Source of the DNA: Minisyncoccota bacterium
GTDB lineage: Bacteria > Patescibacteriota > Minisyncoccia > Phycocordibacterales > UBA12079
Direction of reading: 5' to 3'
Assembly (NCBI GenBank): GCA_023135835.1
Contig: JAGLSI010000003.1
Coordinates: 1 to 41,765 of the forward strand
Length of the DNA stretch: 41,765 nucleotides
Shown piece after piece: positions 3-13,703 of this stretch. The position numbers and the translations under genes were made by a program. The first letter of the stretch is position 1, and each line of letters opens with the position of its first letter. Under the pieces are notes generated by a model. It did no database searches. It was given only the letters and a program-made list of their open reading frames with translations, and had not been told where the DNA came from.

Positions 3-3000
3 AACGTCGGGATTGGGACGACTGCCCCTGATGGTAAGTTGGAGGTTTATGGAGCTGGGCAACTTGTTAGTGATTTAACAGATGCAGGAAGTAGAGATAA
101 TATGCTAATGATTAATTCATCAGGAACTTCTGGTGGAAGTGGTGGAGCTTTGGTTTTTGGTAATAGTCAGTCTAAGACAGCAGATAGTCTTGGTTGGGCT
201 GCTATAAAGGCTCATTTAACAAATGGTTCTGGTAATACTGTTGGTAATTTAACATTCTCTACAAGAAACTCCACTTCAGATACAGCATTAACACAAAGAA
301 TGACAATTTTATCTGGGGGTAATATTGGAATTGGTGTATCATCTCCATCTCAACAACTAGAAATAACAGGGGATTTTGAATTACCAAATACGACTCACGC
401 TGATGAATCAGGAATAATTTATAAAGGTACAAGCCCGTTTATTCATAATTTTAATTATGGAGATAATGGATCAGTTACAACTGTTGGTGGAAATACTTTT
501 GTGGGTGTGGATTCTGGTAATTTTACAATGGGATCAACGGCGGTTTCAGCTCTTTCTGCTAGTTATAATACAGGGGTAGGAGAAGATTCTTTAAAGTCTT
601 TAACATTAGGATATGGAAATACAGCGTCGGGTTATAATTCTCTTGCTAGTAATACTACGGGAAGTCTTAACTCTGCATTAGGATATTATGCTCTTTTTGA
701 TAATACTACTGGTAATTATAATACAGGGGTAGGAACTGAGTCTCTTGCTAACAATACTATAGGTGATTCTAATACTGCTATAGGAAATAATTCTCTTTGG
801 AATAATGTTGATGGTTCCAATAACTCTGCTTTAGGTCATAGTGCTCTTGTTGGTAATGAAGATGGTGATCTTAATATTGCCATAGGGTATGATGCAGGTC
901 ATTATTATGGAGATTATGCAATGTCAAATACTTCTGGAAATAAAAATATATATTTAGGAGTTCAGACTAAGTCTGCAGGATATGATAAAGAAAATGAGAT
1001 TGTAATTGGTTATACTGCTGAAGGTATTGGCTCTAATTCTGTCGTTTTGGGAAATGAATCTATTACGACAACAGCTTTGAGAGGTAATGTTGGAATTGGA
1101 ACAACTGATCCAGGGGCGAAAACAGAAATTTATCAAGCAATGTCTGATTATGGTTCTGCATTTACTTCACCCCACTTAAATTTGGGGGCAAGCAATACTG
1201 TAGATAATACTGGTTTTGTTGGAATTACTTATGATACGAGCGCTACTGCTAATTATGGTTGGTCATCTGGGGCTTTGAGGAGTTCAAGTGGGCAAGGAGA
1301 TTTTGTTTGGAAATTCCATAGTGCTAGTGCCGTAGGTAGTGAGTTAATGAGAATAACAAGTACAGGCAACGTCGGGATAGGGACTACTGATCCAGTGTCA
1401 GTGCTTCATATTAAAGATACTACATGGACTAATCTATCTATAGAAGCCACCTCTGATGATCCATCATTGCAATTAACATCAGATGGAAGTGGTACAAGTA
1501 ATGACTGGACAATGCGCATGGATGTGTCAGATTCAGATAAACTTCAATGGCGCTATGATGGTACGAAAAAGCTTACAATAACTAGCCCTGGTCAACTAAT
1601 AATGACAAACGACAACTGGCTTTCAGCTGATAATAATGCCGGAACCGACTATGTAAATATGTTCAAGGTAAATACTAGTGATGAAATAGATGTTGGAGCA
1701 ACCTTAAATGTCGGAGCGATGGAATTCTCTGAAGATAGTGGATTTGTAACTGCCATGGATATGCCAGTTTCATCTACACCAACAGCTGGAGATATAGAAG
1801 CTTATGCCTTTAAGGTTGATGGTGATAATATTTTAACTGTTTATGCTGAAGCTGATGGAGCAGGAGGTATTCAAAATGCAAGAGTTGGAATTGGGGATTC
1901 CTCTCCTTCATACCAATTAGAATTATCAACAGATTCCGCTGCAAAACCAGGAACTAGCTCATGGACAGTTTCCTCTGATGAAAGGCTAAAAGATGTTAAT
2001 GGTGATTTCACTAGAGGATTAGATGCTTTGTCTGGACTTTACCCTTCTTACTTTAATTATAAAACAGACAATGATTTAGGGATTCCTAGTGATAGAGAAT
2101 ATGTTGGATTGATTGCTCAGGATGTTCAGTCTGTGATTCCTGAAGCTGTAAGAGAAGGAAAAGAAGGATTTTTGTCTATTGAATCAGATGCTATTTTCTG
2201 GACAATGTTGAACGCTATTAAAGAAATTGGTTTGAAAGTTGGTTCTGATAACATTACTTATACACGAGATACTCTGCAGGTTTTGAACGGAACAGGAGAA
2301 CCGCAAATGAAATTGGCTTATGATGAGGAAAACTTAGCAGAGTTTAATGTATCGGCTGTAGGTGATTTATCTTTGAGTACAGCTGGAAAAGATATTCGGT
2401 TACCAGATGATAATTTATCGGTTTGTTCGGGAGGAGCTTGTTCTTCAGCAGCTTCTTTGATTGAGGGAACTGGTAATTTGGTTGTAGAAAATGTGGCTTA
2501 TATCGCTGGTTCTCTAGGTGTTGGGACAGCTCAACCTAGCCGAGGGTTAGATGTTTACGAGTCTCAATCAGACCCTCAATTTAGAATTTCTTATGACGAT
2601 GATTTGTATTCTGAATTTAATGTTTCTGCCACTGGAGATTTAATAATTTCTGCTGAAGGAGGAGACATCTCTGTTTTGAATGAGAATTTACGAGTTTGTT
2701 CAGATGAAGGTTGCCCTTCTATCGCAAGTCAAATTAAAGATTCTGGTAATTTAGTAGTAGAAAATTCATTGCTAGCTTTAGGAAATGTTGGAATAGGAGG
2801 AACGATTTCTCCAGATTATACATTAGATGTTCAAGGAACTCTACGAGCCTATGGAATTACTGATGCTTCAGATGCTCGTCTAAAAACCAACATCCAACCA
2901 TTAATTCACTTGGGGGTAGCACCCCCAAGTGAAGGGATTTCTGCTACCTTAGAGAATGTTAAAAAATTACGAGGAGTTACTTTTGAATGGAAGAATGAAG

Positions 3001-3314
3001 ATTTTGGAACAGGAATTCAGATTGGAATGATTGCTCAAGAACTAGAAGAAGTTTACCCAGATTTGGTTTCAACAGATGATAGCGGGTTTAAATCAATTCA
3101 ATATGGTAAATTTACAGCAGTTCTGTTAGAAGCAGTTAAAGATTTAATTAATTTTGGAGAAAAAATTGAATATAGAAGTGCAAGATTAGAAAATAGAACA
3201 GCAGAATTGGAAGAAAAAAATATTGAACTTGAAAAACAGGCAGAAAGTTTAGAGCAGAAAACTCAGACATTAGAAGCTCGGATAGAAGCTCTAGAAAATA
3301 TACTTCGTCAGTAA
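3..3314 (+). CDS. Large fibre/adhesin-like protein (5'-truncated) with GNVGIGT repeats, Asn/Gly/Ser-rich beta-helical repeats, two peptidase-S74 (intramolecular chaperone) domains and a C-terminal coiled coil
   Basis: Frame is open from base 3 (NVGIGTTAPDGKLEV), so the true start lies upstream of the window. Repeated GN(V/I)GIG motifs, N-T/S-A-x-G-x-x-A/S-L repeats, SDERLK (~1975) and SDARLK (~2870) S74 motifs, each followed by G(L/M)IAQ(D/E). Confidence 0.8.
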   Translation, partial: NVGIGTTAPDGKLEVYGAGQLVSDLTDAGSRDNMLMINSSGTSGGSGGALVFGNSQSKTADSLGWAAIKAHLTNGSGNTVGNLTFSTRNSTSDTALTQRMTILSGGNIGIGVSSPSQQLEITGDFELPNTTHADESGIIYKGTSPFIHNFNYGDNGSVTTVGGNTFVGVDSGNFTMGSTAVSALSASYNTGVGEDSLKSLTLGYGNTASGYNSLASNTTGSLNSALGYYALFDNTTGNYNTGVGTESLANNTIGDSNTAIGNNSLWNNVDGSNNSALGHSALVGNEDGDLNIAIGYDAGHYYGDYAMSNTSGNKNIYLGVQTKSAGYDKENEIVIGYTAEGIGSNSVVLGNESITTTALRGNVGIGTTDPGAKTEIYQAMSDYGSAFTSPHLNLGASNTVDNTGFVGITYDTSATANYGWSSGALRSSSGQGDFVWKFHSASAVGSELMRITSTGNVGIGTTDPVSVLHIKDTTWTNLSIEATSDDPSLQLTSDGSGTSNDWTMRMDVSDSDKLQWRYDGTKKLTITSPGQLIMTNDNWLSADNNAGTDYVNMFKVNTSDEIDVGATLNVGAMEFSEDSGFVTAMDMPVSSTPTAGDIEAYAFKVDGDNILTVYAEADGAGGIQNARVGIGDSSPSYQLELSTDSAAKPGTSSWTVSSDERLKDVNGDFTRGLDALSGLYPSYFNYKTDNDLGIPSDREYVGLIAQDVQSVIPEAVREGKEGFLSIESDAIFWTMLNAIKEIGLKVGSDNITYTRDTLQVLNGTGEPQMKLAYDEENLAEFNVSAVGDLSLSTAGKDIRLPDDNLSVCSGGACSSAASLIEGTGNLVVENVAYIAGSLGVGTAQPSRGLDVYESQSDPQFRISYDDDLYSEFNVSATGDLIISAEGGDISVLNENLRVCSDEGCPSIASQIKDSGNLVVENSLLALGNVGIGGTISPDYTLDVQGTLRAYGITDASDARLKTNIQPLIHLGVAPPSEGISATLENVKKLRGVTFEWKNEDFGTGIQIGMIAQELEEVYPDLVSTDDSGFKSIQYGKFTAVLLEAVKDLINFGEKIEYRSARLENRTAELEEKNIELEKQAESLEQKTQTLEARIEALENILRQ
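2905..2933. repeat. REP-like palindrome copy 1 (in-frame within the S74 domain)
   Basis: TTCACTTGGGGGT-AGC-ACCCCCAAGTGAA, perfect 13-bp stem. Confidence 0.9.
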
Positions 3315-3326
3315 TTCTAATAATTA

Positions 3327-3353
3327 CTACTTGGGGGTAGCACCCCCAAGTAG
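3327..3353. repeat. REP-like palindrome copy 2 (5' of RAYT)
   Basis: CTACTTGGGGGT-AGC-ACCCCCAAGTAG. Confidence 0.92.
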
Positions 3354-3373: not shown

Positions 3374-4114
3374 ATGAGAAAAACAATAATATACAGAAAA
3401 AACGAATATTATCACATTTATAATCGGGGAGTTGATAAGAGAATTATTTTTACAGATAAATTTGATTTGCAGAGATTTTATCAAAGTATGGAAGAATTTA
3501 ATTCTGTTGAACCAATAGGGAGTATTTTTGAAAATCGTTTTAATTTAAAAAACAGAAAAGAATCGCTTGGGGGTGCTACCCCCAAGTATGGGAAATTGGT
3601 GGAAATTGTGGCTTATTGTTTAAATCCTAATCACTATCATTTAATACTAACTTCTTTAGTTGAAGGTGGAATAAGTGAATATATGAGAAGACTTAATTCT
3701 GGATATACTACTTATTTTAATCAAAGATATAAAAGAACAGGTTCATTATTTGGAGGAACTTTTAAATCTGTTTATATTAATTCAGATTCTTATTTAAGAT
3801 TTTTAAGTGTTTATGTAAATTTAAATTTTGAAGTGCATCAAAAGTTTCAAAATGTTAAAGATAAAAAATTATTTCATAAATCTAGCTGGGACGAATATAT
3901 AAAAGTTAAAATTATAAAAGGAAAAAGAGGTGAAGAGAATCAAGTCATTAATAATAAAAATGATATTTGTGATAAATCAATGATCTCGTCTCATTTTGAT
4001 TCAGTAGATCAGTATAAAAAATTTGCTTTAGAGTCGTTAAAGGACATAAAAGCAAAAAGATATAAAGATAGTGAGGTTATTAAGAAAACTTTTGAAACAA
4101 GTAAAGGGTTTTAA
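3374..4114 (+). mobile_element. REP-associated tyrosine transposase (RAYT/TnpA-REP, Y1 HUH family)
   Basis: Motifs YYHIYNRG, YCLNPNHYHL (HUH), YFNQRYKRTGSLF, YVNLN (candidate catalytic Tyr) and SSW; flanked by inverted palindromic repeats. Confidence 0.9.
3566..3586. repeat. REP-like palindrome copy 3 (in-frame inside RAYT, opposite orientation)
   Basis: CTTGGGGGT-GCT-ACCCCCAAG, translated as LGGATPK. Confidence 0.9.
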
Positions 4115-4115
4115 A

Positions 4116-4142
4116 TTACTTGGGGGTGCTACCCCCAAGTAA
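4116..4142. repeat. REP-like palindrome copy 4 (3' of RAYT)
   Basis: TTACTTGGGGGT-GCT-ACCCCCAAGTAA; loop is inverted relative to copies 1-2. Confidence 0.92.
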
Positions 4143-4162
4143 AAAATATTATATAAAAGAAG

Positions 4163-7100
4163 ATGAAAAAAATATTTAAAATAAATACATCAATATCGGT
4201 AATAATTGTAGGAATTTTATTTTTCTCTAGTATTGCTTGGGCGGCTATTTTTTATGGAATAGTAGCTGATTCTAGTGCTAGTTTGGTTGGGCATTGGCCT
4301 TTAGATGAAGGGAGTGAGAAAGGTTTAACAGGATTTTATGATCTTTCTGTAGCTTCTCATGATTCTGTTTTTAGCACAACTAGTCAAGATCAGGAGACTC
4401 ATGGACTTGCTTTTAATACTGATGGAACAAAAATGTTTATTGTGGGTATGACTAATGATAGAGTTTATGAATACCATTTAACCACAGGCTTTGACGTTTC
4501 TTCAGCTTCTTATGATTCGTATTATCAGATTCCTGGTGTATCCTTTCTTGTTAACCCTGTGGGACTTGCTTTTAATACTGATGGAACAAAAATGTTTATT
4601 GTTGATATTTATTATAATAATGTAAGTGAATATCACTTAACCACAGGTTTTGACGTTTCTACAACTTCTTTTGATTCAGATTTTGATGTTTCGGGAGAGG
4701 ATGGAAATCCTACGGGGGTTACGTTTAATATTAATGGAACAAAAATGTTTGTAACTGGCGTTGAGAATGATAATGTTTATGAATATCATTTAACTACTGG
4801 TTTTGATGTTTCTACAGCTTCTCATGATTCAAGTTTTGATATATCAGGGCAGGATGATTATCCTGAGGAACTTGTTTTTAGTGCTGATGGTTTTCAAATG
4901 TTTGTTGTAGGAAGTGGTGACTTTGAGGTTAACGTATATGATTTAGGGGCAGCTTTTGATGTTTCTTCTGCTTCGTATAGTTCTGTTTTTAGTGTATCTG
5001 GTGAAGACACAGACCCTAGAGGAATTGCTTTTAATTTAGATGGATCAAAGATGCTTCTTGTTGGTGAAACTGATGATGATGTTAATGAATATCATTTTAC
5101 TTTATCTATGGTTGTGGCTGACAAAACCGCCAACGAAAACCACGGTGAAATTTACGAAACCGCCTACACTACCGACCACATGGGACAGGCTAATAAAGCG
5201 ATGATTTTTGATGGGGTGGATGATAATATTATAATTAGCGATATTGATTTTTCTGATGAGATGACTGGGTCAGTGTGGGTAAAATTTGATGAAGTGTCTA
5301 GTCAGCAGATGGTAGTTTCACAATCTACTGTTTTGGAATATCAATTACAAATGAGAGGTAGTGCTGGGAGTGAATATTTTAGAATTAGGGTGGATACTAA
5401 TGGCGGGAATGGAATTGCAGATTCAACAACACGGGCTATTGCAGATCAATGGTATAATATTACTTGGACCTATGATGGTTCTGATTTGAAAATATATGTT
5501 GACGGAGTATTGGAAAGTACTAATAGTGATGCCTCGGGGAACATAGATGATATTAATGAGAACGTGGGGATCGGCGCTAGAAGTAATGGAGATTATCCAA
5601 CGGACGGTTCCATTTCCGATGTCCGTATCTACGATAAAGCTCTTAGTGCTAAAGAAGTGACAAGTATCTACGAACAATATCGTCCAAAAACACAATTTAG
5701 CACTCGGCAAAAAGGTTTGGTAGGACATTGGATGTTGGATTCAGAGAGTGAAAAAGTGGGAGATAATATTAATGATAATGGTGATTTTGAAACTGGTGAT
5801 TTAACTGGATGGTCGTATTGGTTTAATTCTGCTAATGGTGCCGCGGGGAGTGGGTCAATTGATTCTTCTGAATATTTTGGTGGGTCGTATAGTGGAAAAA
5901 TAAATATTACTAATGGTGGTGGTGCTATTGGTGATATTAATTTTTCTAATAAATATTTTACAACAGCAACGAGCACTGTATATCGCTTGTCTTTTGCAGT
6001 TAAGGCTGATTTTACTCCAACAGCTCCTTTTTCGGCGCGTATTATAAAAAATACTGGCCCATACACAAATTGTGGTTTAATAGAAGATATTACTCCAACT
6101 TCAGAATGGCAGACTTATGATTATACTTTTGATGCAACTTACGGTTTTACAGATGATGTTAGAGTTATTTTTTATTTAGGAAATATTGGTATAGGTAATA
6201 TTTATTTTGATAATGTTTCGTTTAAAGAAGTGAGCATTGCCGACAAAACCCCAAATGAAAATCATGGTGATGTTTATGGTGCTGTTTCTACCACCGACCA
6301 AATGGGGCAAGCTGACCGAGCGATGGTTTTTGATGGAACAAATGATTATGTAGAAATTACCGATTCAACAGATTTTGATATTGATAGTAATGGTTTTACA
6401 TATACGGCTTGGATAAATGGGACTGATTTTACTCCAGCTTATAATATGTTTATGGGGCATTATCTTCCTTATTTTAATGTTAGGAGTACTGGAAAATTAC
6501 ATCTTAGTGTTCATGACGGAACTCAAAGGTCTTGTTATGGCAACACTGTTTTAGATACGGATACTTGGTATTTTGTTTCAGCTACTTATGATAGTGATGG
6601 ATATATGAGAGTCTTCGTAAATGGAGAACAAGATGGAATAGCTGGTCCTTATTCTGATTTAGTTAATTCTTCTTCTCATCAGTATATTGGACAATGGTAT
6701 AATACTGGTACTTATAAGTTTACAGGTTCAATTTCTGATGTGCGTGTTTATAATTATGCTTTGGATTCAAGTGAGCTTGAAACCCTTTATCATTCTTATC
6801 GTCCAAAAATATCTTCTGGGTCTTTGCAAAAAGGTTTGGTTGGACATTGGCCTTTAGATGGGGAGAGTGAAAAGGTAGATGATGATTTGCTTGCTAATGG
6901 AGATTGTGAGATAGCTAAACCAACTTTAAATAGTGCTAGTTCAGGGGCTAGAGCTACGACAGCTCTTTCAAGTACAGAAGCTTTTTCTGGAGTTTCTTCA
7001 ACAAAACTAACTTTAACAGAAGATACTACAGCAGGATTTTATAATATAGGTGCTTATAATTTAAATAACCTAACCCCCGGAAAAACATATAGATATTCAG

Positions 7101-7921
7101 GGTATGTTTATATTCCTTCTAGTGGAGGTGTTTCTACATCGGCTTTTTTACAGTTTTACGATTATAATGGAGCTTATTCTGCTCAAACTCAGACTATAAC
7201 AACAGAAGATGAATGGGTACCCTTTTCTATAACAAGAACAATAAGAAGTGATGCAACTATGGCTTTTGTTAGAGTTAGTGGGAGTGGTCTTAATACTGAA
7301 TATTTATATTTTGATAATTTATCTTTGCGAGAAGTTGAGACTAGTGATAAAGGAGCTTACTCAAATCATGGTGAGGTTTATGGACCAACTTCAACAACAG
7401 GAATAAATGGAGAAACTGATGGAGCGATGAGTTTTGATGGGACTGATGATTATATTAATATGGGGAACGAGGCAAGTTTTCAGGTAACAGGAAGCCAGAC
7501 TATAAGTATGTGGCTTTATCCAGATAACTTTTCTGCAAGAAGGAACCCTCTTGCCAAGGCCTATGGGGGAGAAGGAACGATTACACAAGAAACAGACGGA
7601 GATTTAAGTTATTATTATGGAACAGCTGGTAGTAATACGACCCCTTATCAAGGATTTAGAACTACTTCACCCTTAACTTTAAATAACTGGAATCATATTG
7701 TTCTAACTAGAGATTTAGACAATATGGTTTTGAAATGGTATTTAAATGGTGCAGAAATTACTTCAACCACAGCTCTTTATTCTTATGCCACAGCGTCATC
7801 CCTTGATTTAAAAATTGGTGATGGATATACATCTAATTATGCTGGAAAAATTGCCAATGTTCGTATTTATAATCGAGCTTTAAGTGATGAAGAAATCGCA
7901 TTACTTTATTCTAGAAAATAG
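4163..7921 (+). CDS. Secreted LamG/concanavalin-like multidomain surface protein with beta-propeller repeats and two CBM4/9-like domains
   Basis: N-terminal signal/TM segment; three LVGHWxLD...FDGxxD...GxIxxVR(I/V)Y LamG units; GLAFNTDGTKMF propeller repeats; NGD(F/C)E...YFDN CBM-like modules. Confidence 0.8.
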   Translation: MKKIFKINTSISVIIVGILFFSSIAWAAIFYGIVADSSASLVGHWPLDEGSEKGLTGFYDLSVASHDSVFSTTSQDQETHGLAFNTDGTKMFIVGMTNDRVYEYHLTTGFDVSSASYDSYYQIPGVSFLVNPVGLAFNTDGTKMFIVDIYYNNVSEYHLTTGFDVSTTSFDSDFDVSGEDGNPTGVTFNINGTKMFVTGVENDNVYEYHLTTGFDVSTASHDSSFDISGQDDYPEELVFSADGFQMFVVGSGDFEVNVYDLGAAFDVSSASYSSVFSVSGEDTDPRGIAFNLDGSKMLLVGETDDDVNEYHFTLSMVVADKTANENHGEIYETAYTTDHMGQANKAMIFDGVDDNIIISDIDFSDEMTGSVWVKFDEVSSQQMVVSQSTVLEYQLQMRGSAGSEYFRIRVDTNGGNGIADSTTRAIADQWYNITWTYDGSDLKIYVDGVLESTNSDASGNIDDINENVGIGARSNGDYPTDGSISDVRIYDKALSAKEVTSIYEQYRPKTQFSTRQKGLVGHWMLDSESEKVGDNINDNGDFETGDLTGWSYWFNSANGAAGSGSIDSSEYFGGSYSGKINITNGGGAIGDINFSNKYFTTATSTVYRLSFAVKADFTPTAPFSARIIKNTGPYTNCGLIEDITPTSEWQTYDYTFDATYGFTDDVRVIFYLGNIGIGNIYFDNVSFKEVSIADKTPNENHGDVYGAVSTTDQMGQADRAMVFDGTNDYVEITDSTDFDIDSNGFTYTAWINGTDFTPAYNMFMGHYLPYFNVRSTGKLHLSVHDGTQRSCYGNTVLDTDTWYFVSATYDSDGYMRVFVNGEQDGIAGPYSDLVNSSSHQYIGQWYNTGTYKFTGSISDVRVYNYALDSSELETLYHSYRPKISSGSLQKGLVGHWPLDGESEKVDDDLLANGDCEIAKPTLNSASSGARATTALSSTEAFSGVSSTKLTLTEDTTAGFYNIGAYNLNNLTPGKTYRYSGYVYIPSSGGVSTSAFLQFYDYNGAYSAQTQTITTEDEWVPFSITRTIRSDATMAFVRVSGSGLNTEYLYFDNLSLREVETSDKGAYSNHGEVYGPTSTTGINGETDGAMSFDGTDDYINMGNEASFQVTGSQTISMWLYPDNFSARRNPLAKAYGGEGTITQETDGDLSYYYGTAGSNTTPYQGFRTTSPLTLNNWNHIVLTRDLDNMVLKWYLNGAEITSTTALYSYATASSLDLKIGDGYTSNYAGKIANVRIYNRALSDEEIALLYSRK

Positions 7922-11403: not shown

Positions 11404-11413
11404 TTAGTAATTT

Positions 11414-11490
11414 GAAGTCCGACCTCTTAACTAAAATATTCGTAACCTTTAGTTATTCGTTTTGTTTTCTTAATACTGAGGTCGGACTTC
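11414..11490. repeat. Inverted doublet of a 13-bp quasi-palindrome (second REP-like family)
   Basis: GAAGTCCGACCTC (11414-11426) and its exact reverse complement GAGGTCGGACTTC (11478-11490). Confidence 0.75.
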
Positions 11491-11551
11491 TTAATTATTT
11501 TGAACCGATAATTTAGAAATTTAAATAAAATTAAAAATTAATAGTAAAATT

Positions 11552-12007: not shown

Positions 12008-12140
12008 TAATTAATTATTAGTTAAACCAGTGATAAAACGACAAAGGTTTGATTGGTTTAATATAGAAGTTAAAGGAGAAGCTGTTTATATAACATCAAT
12101 GGTATTTAAAATTAATTTTAAATATAACAAGATATTATAA

Positions 12141-12160
12141 TACTCCAGTTAACTGGAGTA
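12141..12160. promoter_or_regulatory. Perfect palindrome copy 1, putative operator overlapping a TATAAT -10 box
   Basis: TACTCCAGTTAACTGGAGTA; TATAAT at 12136-12141. Confidence 0.7.
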
Positions 12161-12205
12161 ATGTTAAAATAATTTTATTATATTTTATTATATTTTATTT
12201 ATATT

Positions 12206-12643
12206 ATGGTTAACGTATCAAAACAAAGATTAAGTAGAAATGTTTTAAATCAAATCAATGATAGATTAATTAGTGTTGTTTCTAATTTAAAAACAAATTC
12301 TTTTACAGGGAATTTTTTAGATGATTTGTTGAGTGAATCTGAAAAAATAACTTTAGCCAAAAGATTAGCTGTTATATTTATGCTTCAAGAAAATATAAGC
12401 TGGTATAGAATTTCTACTTTATTGAAAGTAAGTCAAACTACAGTCAGGAAGATTGCTGTGGATATTGATTTAGAAAAATATGAAAATATTTTAAAGATTG
12501 TTAATCAAAGAAAAAATAGAATCACTTTTTGGACAGGAATGGAAATTGTTTTAAAGGCGGGAATGCCTCCGATTGTAGGAAAGGGAAGATGGGATTTTCT
12601 TAATGATTTAGATGAAAAATATAATTTAAAGAATAAAGAATAA
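12206..12643 (+). CDS. TrpR-like (Trp repressor/YerC-YecD family) HTH protein
   Basis: FLDDLLSESEKITLAKRLAV...ISWYRISTLLKVSQTTVRK resembles the TrpR LLTxxE...xxR...SQRxI...VSxATI pattern. Confidence 0.75.
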   Translation: MVNVSKQRLSRNVLNQINDRLISVVSNLKTNSFTGNFLDDLLSESEKITLAKRLAVIFMLQENISWYRISTLLKVSQTTVRKIAVDIDLEKYENILKIVNQRKNRITFWTGMEIVLKAGMPPIVGKGRWDFLNDLDEKYNLKNKE

Positions 12644-12670
12644 AGAATAAAGAATAGAGAATAGAGAATA
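12627..12670 (+). repeat. 7-bp tandem repeat x6 spanning the TrpR-like stop codon
   Basis: (TAAAGAA)4(TAGAGAA)2. Confidence 0.8.
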
Positions 12671-12676
12671 AATTAG

Positions 12677-12704
12677 TAATTACTCCAGTTAACTGGAGTA
12701 ATTA
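12677..12704. repeat. Perfect palindrome copy 2
   Basis: TAATTACTCCAGTTAACTGGAGTAATTA (28 bp). Confidence 0.9.
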
Positions 12705-12872
12705 AATCTATTTAACACAAATCATTTGAGATAATTATCTATTATTAGTTATTTATATATGTAGTAGTTAAAATACTTTAACTATCTCAGTTAATTATGG
12801 TAACCGAAAATGTTTGTGAGGTTTTTAATAGATTAGACTAATTTAATTTTAATAAATAAAAAATATCAAAAG

Positions 12873-12896
12873 ATTACTCCAGTTAACTGGAGTAAT
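12873..12896. repeat. Perfect palindrome copy 3
   Basis: ATTACTCCAGTTAACTGGAGTAAT (24 bp). Confidence 0.9.
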
Positions 12897-12944
12897 ATAA
12901 GTGTTAATATTAGTGTTGTAGTATAAATAACTTGTAAGAATAAA

Positions 12945-13703
12945 TTATTTTTTCTTTAAATATTGTCCGATTTTCCACCAAAAGATTTTTTGTTGGTCTT
13001 TAATTGATTTACGACTCTCTTTTACTTCTGACCAATATTGATAAATAATATTTTCTGGAATTCTTTTAAAAAACCCTAGATAGAAACCAAAAGAACCTTT
13101 GCCTTTTTTATTTGTTTCCTGAAAATATTCTCTTATTTCAGCAACTAAGTAATGTTTTTCGGAATGAAGTGAGCTTTTTTTATTATTATTTTGTGGAGAT
13201 AATAGATTTCCAATGCTTTGAACTCCCTTACCACTTAATTTAACCTCTTTTTTTTCTGGAAGAAAAGGCTTTAATTTGCTACTAATAAAATCTGGGATAA
13301 TTTTTTTACTATAATTTTTAATAGTATTTTTTTCTGAAATTTCAGAAATTTTATTCAGCTCTTTTTTAATAGTTTTTGTAAAAATTTTTTCTAATGAAAA
13401 GTCTAAGGTATTTTTAATTTTAGCTGTTTTTGTTTCTATGTCTTTAATAACTTCTTCAGAAAGAAAAGGAAATTCATAAGGGTTTGTAGTTTTGTTTATC
13501 TGAATATCAGTTTTTCTTAAAAATTGTTTTGTATTTTTTGAGTTATCTATTCCTATAATTAAAACAGGTTTTTCTTTTTTATTATTTGATTGTGAGTAAG
13601 GGGCTAGAATAATAGAACCAATTGAAAAGTTTTCTTGAGTAAAAAACAAGGCTGGTTTTTGAAATTTATTTCTATATATAGGAATAACAGTTAGTATATT
13701 CAT
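12945..13703 (-). CDS. Hypothetical basic protein; N-terminus reminiscent of the PriA 3'-DNA-binding domain, small helical C-terminal domain
   Basis: 252-aa ORF; VIPI...FFT..FSIGSIILAP..K..VLII pattern; no helicase motifs. Confidence 0.55.
   Translation of the reverse strand: MNILTVIPIYRNKFQKPALFFTQENFSIGSIILAPYSQSNNKKEKPVLIIGIDNSKNTKQFLRKTDIQINKTTNPYEFPFLSEEVIKDIETKTAKIKNTLDFSLEKIFTKTIKKELNKISEISEKNTIKNYSKKIIPDFISSKLKPFLPEKKEVKLSGKGVQSIGNLLSPQNNNKKSSLHSEKHYLVAEIREYFQETNKKGKGSFGFYLGFFKRIPENIIYQYWSEVKESRKSIKDQQKIFWWKIGQYLKKK

What the first reader, a model, noticed from the sequence alone, without database searches (positions are those of the whole stretch)
2905..2933. REP palindrome translated in-frame inside a host protein
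Seen: REP copy 1 is read as IHLGVAPPSE immediately after SDARLKTNIQPL, making this loop about 10 aa longer than the equivalent stretch of the first S74 domain (SDERLKDVNGDFTRGLDAL), with no frameshift. Known precedent: Rickettsia palindromic elements insert in-frame in ORFs. Inference: the neighbouring RAYT deposited a REP that became protein sequence, a route for adding peptide loops to surface proteins.
Basis: partly seen in the sequence, partly recalled or inferred. Interest (0 to 1): 0.7.

Follow-up and report, generated by a model that had tools for sequence, protein, structure and literature searches.

The report
Mobile hairpins rewrite CPR protein loops
A 21-base DNA hairpin that also brackets the neighbouring transposase-like gene sits in frame in a loop of a surface-protein folding domain and in several housekeeping genes of this tiny Patescibacteria genome, and related genomes carry different hairpins at the same spots, so the enzyme likely both inserts these hairpins and overwrites older ones in place.

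Summary
Observation confirmed. The palindrome at 2905-2933 lies in frame (IHLGVAPPSE) in the second S74 domain. The loop is 12 aa longer than canonical and 10 aa longer than in G005, which lacks both the loop and this RAYT. The 21-bp core has 13 exact copies genome-wide: 3 at or in the RAYT gene, 9 inside reading frames (fmt, tgt, miaA, truB, rsmA and others). The targets are mostly cytoplasmic enzymes, and 4 of 8 comparable coding copies add no length. The S74 loop is a hotspot: 10 of 15 close homologues hold other inserts, 9 of them clearly hairpins. At truB the 11-nt core is swapped 11/11 between sister genomes, the only such window of 241,246. Best reading: a RAYT-type HUH nuclease inserts hairpins into tolerant loops and later overwrites them; the enzyme's role is inferred, not shown. 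Precedents: Rickettsia RPEs, intragenic REPs, overwritten REPINs. This scan found the same phenomenon before in other CPR genomes, including an S74 loop. New variant of a known kind.

The parts
2905..2933 (.). In-frame palindrome: 13-bp arms, 3-nt loop; 21-bp core at 2909-2929; reads IHLGVAPPSE on the + strand
3..3314 (+). Host ORF, open at the 5' end, at least 1103 aa: repetitive protein with two Peptidase_S74 domains and a C-terminal coiled-coil-like tail; surface location is inferred
2868..3068 (+). Second S74 (intramolecular chaperone autocleavage) domain; Ser, Asp, Arg and Lys of the SDxRLK motif are intact; the hairpin peptide is a low-confidence coil behind the motif
1974..2150 (+). First S74 domain with the canonical 12-aa loop (end approximate)
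3327..3353 (.). Copy of the repeat upstream of the RAYT gene
3374..4114 (+). RAYT-like Y1/HUH transposase gene, 246 aa; His87, His89 and Tyr147 invariant in 55 aligned homologues
3566..3586 (.). Copy of the repeat in frame inside the RAYT gene (LGGATPK, codons 65-71), before the HUH motif
4116..4142 (.). Copy of the repeat directly behind the RAYT stop codon

Best explanation
The hairpin is one of 13 identical copies of a repeat tied to the adjacent RAYT-like gene, and that enzyme likely puts such hairpins into tolerant protein loops and likely overwrites older hairpins in place. Shown: the repeat flanks and sits inside the RAYT gene; it lies in frame in the S74 loop and in housekeeping genes; orthologous positions in sister genomes are empty, or hold a different hairpin of the same build (CTTGG, 4-bp stem, 3-nt loop, CCAAG), often at the same length. 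Inferred: the HUH/Tyr nuclease cuts and rejoins single-stranded hairpin DNA, as shown for other TnpA-REP proteins. A first event adds about 30 nt at a permissive loop. Later events replace the resident hairpin, or a decayed look-alike, with the type the current enzyme recognises, in either orientation. Copies survive in genes because the core is 7 codons and 5 of its 6 frames have no stop. The peptide is likely a tolerated by-product, not a selected function.
For: RAYT link: in 11 of 19 Y1 loci examined, an internal hairpin is identical to a flanking one, and the type differs between loci. Copies cluster near a RAYT in G003 (7 of 22 loci on a 24-kb contig, p about 7e-6) and G006 (3 of 7, p 0.006). 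The exact repeat is confined to few genomes: 2 of 41 relatives searched have exact copies, G000 included. Insertion: S74 loop is 12-15 aa in all 45 distant homologues with the motif. Of 15 close homologues, 5 are short and 10 are long; 9 of the 10 fold better than at least 98 of 100 codon shuffles, with different hairpins. Overwriting: net length change versus G005 is 0 in fmt, tgt, miaA and truB. At truB the 11-nt core differs 11 of 11 between G000 and G005 while both stay palindromic; the rest of the gene differs 14%, and it is the only 11/11 window among 241,246 with conserved flanks. argS holds a different core in each of G000, G005, G003 and G002 at one position. GT4 and miaA hold the same repeat in G000 and G003 with the loop inverted. 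The miaA loop holds a hairpin in 12 of 19 family genomes, against at most 2 in 200 codon shuffles. There are 14 perfect 21-bp hairpins in G000 coding DNA, against 0-2 in 20 shuffles. Precedent: REPORTH preprint, Results; TnpA-REP cleavage and strand transfer (passages).
Against: No biochemical or in vivo evidence that this protein cuts these hairpins. It scores only 19 bits on NCBIfam NF047646 (cut-off 80), and a profile of 55 homologues found no solved structure at E up to 1. G003 has 15 exact copies, yet none of its Y1 genes examined is bracketed by and carries this type. Its closest RAYT orthologue carries another type, with one copy of this type about 120 bp upstream; one paralogue runs off a contig end. 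In G002 and L202 the S74 loop holds a hairpin other than that of the adjacent RAYT. The tree of S74 flanks is mostly unresolved (two informative nodes, 99 and 76), so the number of independent insertions is not fixed. G005 differs by about 22% in these flanks, too far to place the insertion junctions. There is no GTAG foot or other conserved guide beyond a flanking A and T. Independent insertion into the same site cannot be told from overwriting at every slot.
Confidence: 0.7

Rival explanations
1. Pure insertion: the neighbouring RAYT pasted one new copy into an empty S74 loop, and equal-length cases elsewhere are separate insertions with small deletions at the same tolerant loops.
For: The net gain against G005 (30 nt) matches the 29-bp hairpin. 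A second repeat family in G000 (peptide LPAGRQ) gives clean +7 or +8 aa gains at 4 of 4 comparable sites. S74 inserts differ in length and start position between genomes.
Against: It needs exact length compensation four times in 8 genes. It does not explain identical register and identical outer arms with a fully changed core at truB and argS, or the fmt site, where G003 and G002 hold decayed hairpin-like look-alikes in a region that aligns without a gap to solved Fmt. The G004 insert ends in nearly the same register as the G000 one, which suggests an older shared slot.
Confidence: 0.15
2. Host-driven change without the RAYT: replication template switching perfects and inverts quasi-palindromes, and gene conversion between short repeats homogenises them; the RAYT gene is only another target.
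For: Loop inversions (GT4, miaA) and copy-specific outer-arm symmetry of 0-5 bp are what template switching is known to give (general knowledge). G003 has fresh copies without an identified cognate RAYT.
Against: Template switching copies from the same molecule and cannot bring in a genome-wide foreign core. The shared arms are only 5-6 bp, far below what RecA needs (general knowledge). Each Y1 gene is bracketed by its own type, and copies cluster near it.
Confidence: 0.1
3. The palindromes are selected binding sites or mRNA hairpins (for example for the RAYT acting as a DNA organiser), or encode a useful peptide.
For: Exact conservation of 13 copies. Five of the coding copies are in tRNA- or rRNA-acting enzymes; the share of such genes in the genome was not measured.
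Against: The same slot holds different peptides, frames and orientations in sister genomes, or nothing at all. Coding occupancy of 9 of 13 does not differ from the 82% coding share (p 0.19).
Confidence: 0.05

Closest known systems
Intragenic GTAG/CGTC REPs and Rickettsia RPEs (Di Nocera et al. 2013, PMC3733652; read: passages and section 15; Ogata's RPE papers not read, known through that paper)
   Same: Short palindromes in frame inside intact genes, including truB and tRNA synthetases; thought to be tolerated in loops.
   Different: There most copies are intergenic and tagged by GTAG or CGTC, and they are treated as insertions. Here there is no such tag, 9 of 13 copies are coding, a cognate Y1 gene is present, and many sites are length-neutral swaps.
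REPIN-RAYT systems; overwriting of REPINs at orthologous sites (REPORTH preprint 10.1101/2024.10.14.618302; read: passages and Results section 17)
   Same: Orthologous positions hold different repeat types that follow the RAYT of the genome; the authors suggest that REPINs may be overwritten.
   Different: That work concerns extragenic doublets of Group 3 RAYTs in Pseudomonas chlororaphis. Here mostly single 21-bp hairpins lie in coding DNA, so a swap rewrites 4-5 codons, and the swap is seen at base level.
TnpA-REP subclass 2.4 / RAYT Group 4 (Quentin et al. 2018, 10.1101/279083; read: parts 2-5 of 7)
   Same: REP copies in frame inside the tnpA-REP gene itself as well as flanking it.
   Different: [quoted passage not shown] Here the main slot is before HuH, the spacing is 58 aa, and there is no foot.
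TnpA-Y1 subclass 2.1 / RAYT Group 1 / TIRYT (Quentin 2018; Bertels 2017, PMC5581495, passages; Di Nocera 2013)
   Same: HuH-Y spacing in the common 58-67 range; flanked by untagged inverted repeats; low repeat copy number (Group 1 mean 12).
   Different: Quentin found no REP-like hairpins with 2.1 and describes a Y---NP motif and a C-terminal HTH. This protein has Y-x-x-L-N and no HTH hit, and it has true dispersed hairpins. Placement was not tested by phylogeny.

Membership tests
REP/RAYT system (REPtron) | Y1 HUH protein with intact HuH and catalytic Tyr | tested here: met
   PF01797 above cut-off; His87, His89 and Tyr147 invariant in 55 homologues
REP/RAYT system (REPtron) | Gene flanked by palindromes that recur dispersed in the genome | tested here: met
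   Copies at 3327 and 4116; 13 exact copies on 10 contigs
REP/RAYT system (REPtron) | Single-copy, diverged genes rather than identical IS copies | tested here: met
   4 PF01797 matches in G000; the others are 33-56% identical to this one
Canonical GTAG-REP / RAYT Groups 2-3 | 5' GT[AG]G tetranucleotide at the hairpin foot | tested here: not met
   Flanks of 13 copies share only A (11 of 13) and T (12 of 13)
Canonical GTAG-REP / RAYT Groups 2-3 | Copies predominantly extragenic | tested here: not met
   9 of 13 coding in G000; 14 of 24 in ORFs of 170 aa or more in G003
NCBIfam RayT (NF047646) | Score above the curated cut-off of 80 bits | tested here: not met
   19 bits; 50 of 55 homologues match weakly at E up to 0.01, best E 3.5e-7
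TnpA-REP subclass 2.4 | In-gene REP between HuH and Y, long HuH-Y spacing | tested here: not met
   Slot at codon 65, before HuH at 87; spacing 58. Some homologues carry a further copy near codon 153-157.
TnpA-Y1 subclass 2.1 / TIRYT | Phylogenetic placement, Y---NP motif, C-terminal HTH | tested here: inconclusive
   Spacing fits; NP motif absent and no HTH hit; no tree with reference sequences was built
REP/RAYT system (REPtron) | Protein cleaves and strand-transfers its cognate ssDNA hairpin | not testable with these tools
   needs biochemistry
Rickettsia palindromic element (RPE) | Sequence family of Rickettsia | not tested
   No comparison with RPE sequences was run; the resemblance is in behaviour only
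Peptidase S74 / ICA domain (host) | Pfam match, SDxRLK motif and ICA fold | tested here: met
   PF13884 E 2.9e-29; motif invariant in 44 sequences; best fold match MyRF ICA 7DC3, E 7.6e-5, then 3GUD and 3GW6

The most novel reading that the evidence does not exclude
These Patescibacteria RAYTs are find-and-replace editors. Each recognises the generic foot of a 21-bp hairpin and rewrites its 11-nt core with its own version, in its own gene and in a standing set of slots in essential enzymes. Gain, loss or a specificity change of a RAYT would then recode the same loops of many proteins in a block, and a short-patch DNA editor that needs only 5-6 bp arms would exist in nature.
Probability: 0.4. 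Interest if true: 0.8.

Novelty: new variant of a known kind. Interest (0 to 1): 0.52.

Why it matters
How RAYTs spread REPs is a long-standing open question. These coding slots keep a base-level record of it: empty, filled, inverted and core-swapped alleles at aligned positions. That gives defined substrates for a direct test of insertion versus overwriting. If overwriting is enzymatic, it is a mutational process that changes several codons at once in essential genes of reduced genomes. It also matters for annotation and phylogeny: in these bacteria, short peptides such as LGVAPPS or LGGSTPK in unrelated proteins are repeat-derived, and loop columns can share or differ in sequence for reasons unrelated to descent. 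The single S74 copy alone is an ordinary tolerated insertion.

Tried and rejected
Assembly artefact: rejected as far as one study can show. Expression: no RNA holder listed; this says nothing either way. AlphaFold model of Fmt from 6 sequences: pLDDT under 50 at residues 190-219, which covers the hairpin peptide, so it was not used. Sequence search of PDB with the RAYT and with a 55-sequence profile: nothing useful. Sequence search of PDB with the S74 tail gave only coiled coils. S74 flank tree: largely unresolved, used only for two nodes. In one search, 25 of 86 loci lacked my motif pattern and were left out; L191 was dropped as identical to the G004 locus. A first hairpin filter missed the G005 truB copy because of a GC threshold, and a similar filter missed hairpins at G005 C3 and others, so 11 of 19 is a lower bound. 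The idea that the tgt copy was converted from the RAYT-internal copy (shared GKLV flank) was dropped: G005 tgt has the same flank without the repeat. The exact-match scan of GTDB gave 16 stretches, 15 in one record set labelled as a CPR bacterium and 1 in another bin; I do not count it as independent of the handle searches. Enrichment in RNA-acting enzymes was not tested, for lack of a genome-wide annotation. Literature searches with no relevant hit: 'repetitive extragenic palindromic' + Patescibacteria (1 unrelated paper); 'candidate phyla radiation' + palindrom + 'REP-associated tyrosine' (0); Patescibacteria + RAYT (0); Parcubacteria / palindromic repeats / coding sequences (25 listed, none on this). 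The library lacks most subscription papers. Supplements (Di Nocera Additional file 3, Quentin Figs S9-S10) were not seen and may list further in-gene cases.

Full report
Observation. Window 2905-2933 is a perfect hairpin (13-bp arms, 3-nt loop) inside the frame 3-3314, read as IHLGVAPPSE after SDARLKTNIQPL. Its core CTTGGGGGTAGCACCCCCAAG (2909-2929) occurs four times in the window, against none in 100 shuffles. The other three are upstream of, inside and downstream of a 246-aa Y1 transposase-like gene at 3374-4114. The host domain is a true S74/ICA domain by Pfam, motif and predicted fold. In the model the peptide is coil with mean pLDDT 59, between blocks of 82 and 89, just behind the intact SDxRLK motif. 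Contigs of three runs of one study carry the same letters across the hairpin. The genome is 573 kb and about 30% G+C; named homologues of the transposase are from Patescibacteria / Paceibacterota.

Is the loop an insertion? Yes, against the family. Of 86 S74 loci examined, 61 had my motif pattern; the loop is 12 aa in 40 of them and 12-15 aa in all 45 distant ones. Here it is 24 aa. G005, a same-genus genome (351 reciprocal best hits, median 85% aa identity), has 14 aa. There the S74 gene runs straight into the Ig-like gene, with neither this RAYT nor the LamG gene between.

The loop is a hotspot. Of 15 distinct close homologues, 5 have 13-15 aa and 10 have 19-62 aa. Nine of the ten long loops fold better than at least 98 of 100 codon shuffles; one (L193) does not, and looks decayed. 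The hairpins are of several unrelated types, single, doubled or nested. Filled and empty alleles are sisters at the two supported nodes (99 and 76); the rest of the tree is unresolved. Among 5 filled loops with a RAYT within 9 kb, the loop repeat is that RAYT's own in G000 and G006, two mismatches of 17 away in G004, and different in G002 and L202. The G004 insert ends in nearly the same register as the G000 one, so the slot may predate the present copy.

Genome-wide. There are 13 exact copies: 4 intergenic and 9 coding, in fmt, tgt, miaA, truB, rsmA, a GT4 glycosyltransferase, an M23 peptidase N-terminus, the RAYT and the S74 protein. Variants sit in argS, tsaD and at second sites in miaA and rsmA. 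Coding DNA holds 14 perfect 21-bp hairpins, against 0-2 in 20 codon shuffles. Nine of 13 is not different from the 82% coding share (p 0.19), unlike classical REPs. Exact copies were found in 2 of 41 genomes searched, G000 and G003. In G003, 14 of 24 places within 3 mismatches are in ORFs of 170 aa or more, including enolase, CTP synthase and transketolase, and the same slots as G000 in GT4, argS, tgt, rsmA, miaA and M23. All five stop-free frames of the element are used across the two genomes. The general build, with fixed 6-bp outer arms and a free 11-nt core, is found in 87 of 301 genomes of the class, up to 26 per genome; the reversed control pattern is found in 10 genomes by my count of the table, at most twice. 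I did not check coding status in those genomes.

Many copies are replacements. Against G005 the net length change around the copy is 0 in fmt, tgt, miaA and truB, +1 in M23, +2 in rsmA, -7 in GT4 and +10 in S74. At truB both genomes have a perfect hairpin with the same inner arms and register, but all 11 core bases differ; the gene differs by 14% elsewhere. Among 241,246 eleven-base windows with conserved flanks in all orthologue pairs this is the only 11/11 window. The windows with 10 mismatches fall at truB, at a hairpin-like site in tsaD and in one unrelated gene. argS has four different cores at one position in G000, G005, G003 and G002, and unrelated sequence in G004 and G001. In GT4 and miaA, G000 and G003 have the same repeat with the 3-nt loop inverted. 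In fmt the site aligns without a gap to solved Fmt 4IQF, and G003 and G002 hold decayed look-alikes. In miaA one loop, 9% of residues, holds 17 of 25 hairpins across 19 family genomes, and 12 of 19 genomes have one there, against at most 2 in 200 shuffles. A second family in G000 (peptide LPAGRQ) behaves differently, with clean gains of 7-8 aa at 4 of 4 sites, so both modes exist.

Link to the enzyme. His87, His89 and Tyr147 are invariant in 55 homologues. In 11 of 19 Y1 loci examined, a hairpin inside the gene, mostly near codon 53-65, is identical to a flanking one, and the type changes from locus to locus. The two most distant Y1 genes (27% and 33% identity) have no hairpins. Homologous proteins show a different peptide at that slot almost every time. 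Copies cluster near a RAYT in G003 and G006; for G000 the chance that 1 of 10 other copies lies within 500 bp of it is about 0.02. Against: G003 has 15 exact copies but no Y1 gene bracketed by and carrying this type among those examined; one paralogue is cut by a contig end. No activity has been measured.

Mechanism. Shown: anatomy, frames, empty, filled, inverted and swapped alleles. From established work: TnpA-REP proteins bind folded ssDNA REPs, cleave, and transfer strands (PMC8266576, passages). Inferred: this protein inserts about 30 nt of hairpin at tolerant loops and later replaces resident hairpins with its own type, acting preferentially nearby. Selection removes frameshifting and stop-carrying outcomes. 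The peptide is incidental, since it changes freely between sisters. I put this at 0.7, insertion only at 0.15, host template switching and conversion at 0.1, and a selected function at 0.05.

Comparison. In-frame palindromes in genes are known: Rickettsia RPEs and intragenic GTAG/CGTC REPs, including in truB (PMC3733652). REPs inside their own transposase gene are known for subclass 2.4 (10.1101/279083). Overwriting was suggested for extragenic REPINs (10.1101/2024.10.14.618302). This system works like a REP/RAYT pair, but fails membership of the canonical GTAG groups (no foot, mostly coding) and of subclass 2.4 (slot position, spacing); placement in subclass 2.1 is untested. Four searches found no paper on it in Patescibacteria, in a library that lacks most subscription journals. 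The scan's own notes report the phenomenon many times on other DNA (499 findings matched the words; overwriting and an S74-loop hotspot). They are unchecked notes and not support. I had reached the same reading before opening them.

Verdict. Real, partly as first interpreted, a new variant of a known kind. Interest 0.52; the editor reading has probability 0.4 and would deserve 0.8.

Noticed in passing
window 12129-12900: A TrpR-like YerC/YecD gene (12206-12643) is bracketed by three copies of a loop-less palindrome at 12141, 12677 and 12873, with more copies elsewhere in the genome; it looks like an autoregulated repressor with its operators.
   Followed up: no
G000 genome-wide (C12, C32, C33 and others): A second palindrome family (peptide LPAGRQ; 11 perfect copies, 15-18 with up to 2 mismatches) gives clean 7-8 aa insertions against G005; I found no Y1 gene in G000 bracketed by it.
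   Followed up: partly
window 3374-7921: The RAYT and the 1252-aa LamG/CBM protein are both missing at the syntenic place in G005, so they came or went as a block.
   Followed up: partly
G000 C15:5861-6563; C18:2-386 with C15:2-320; C30:21473-22145: Two further RAYT-like genes each have their own hairpin type flanking and inside the gene (one is split over two contig ends). A more distant Y1 gene with a Y---NP motif has no such repeats.
   Followed up: partly
window 11410-11495: An inverted pair of half-hairpins between gapA and an rpiB-like gene resembles the repeat type that flanks a RAYT in G003 contig C11.
   Followed up: no
L202:2474-2941: An S74 loop in which one hairpin family is nested inside an older doublet shared with G004, all in frame.
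   Followed up: partly
G000 C12, gene starting near 1140 (pheT-like by recall of its N-terminus), about codon 650: A further length-neutral swap against G005 between two other hairpin families, 9 of 11 core positions different.
   Followed up: partly
G003:C9:3200-4320 (L275): The RAYT orthologue has one hairpin type downstream, decayed copies of it inside and just upstream, and a fresh copy of the G000 type 120 bp upstream; possibly a specificity switch in progress.
   Followed up: partly
G000, G003 coding copies: Many targets act on tRNA or rRNA (miaA, truB, tgt, rsmA, fmt, tsaD, argS, a SpoU methylase), as also noted for other intragenic REPs in PMC3733652; enrichment was not tested.
   Followed up: no
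window 12945-13703: A 252-aa protein with only weak, below-cut-off Pfam hits (Tad5, RIP/P131-like); conserved in G005.
   Followed up: no
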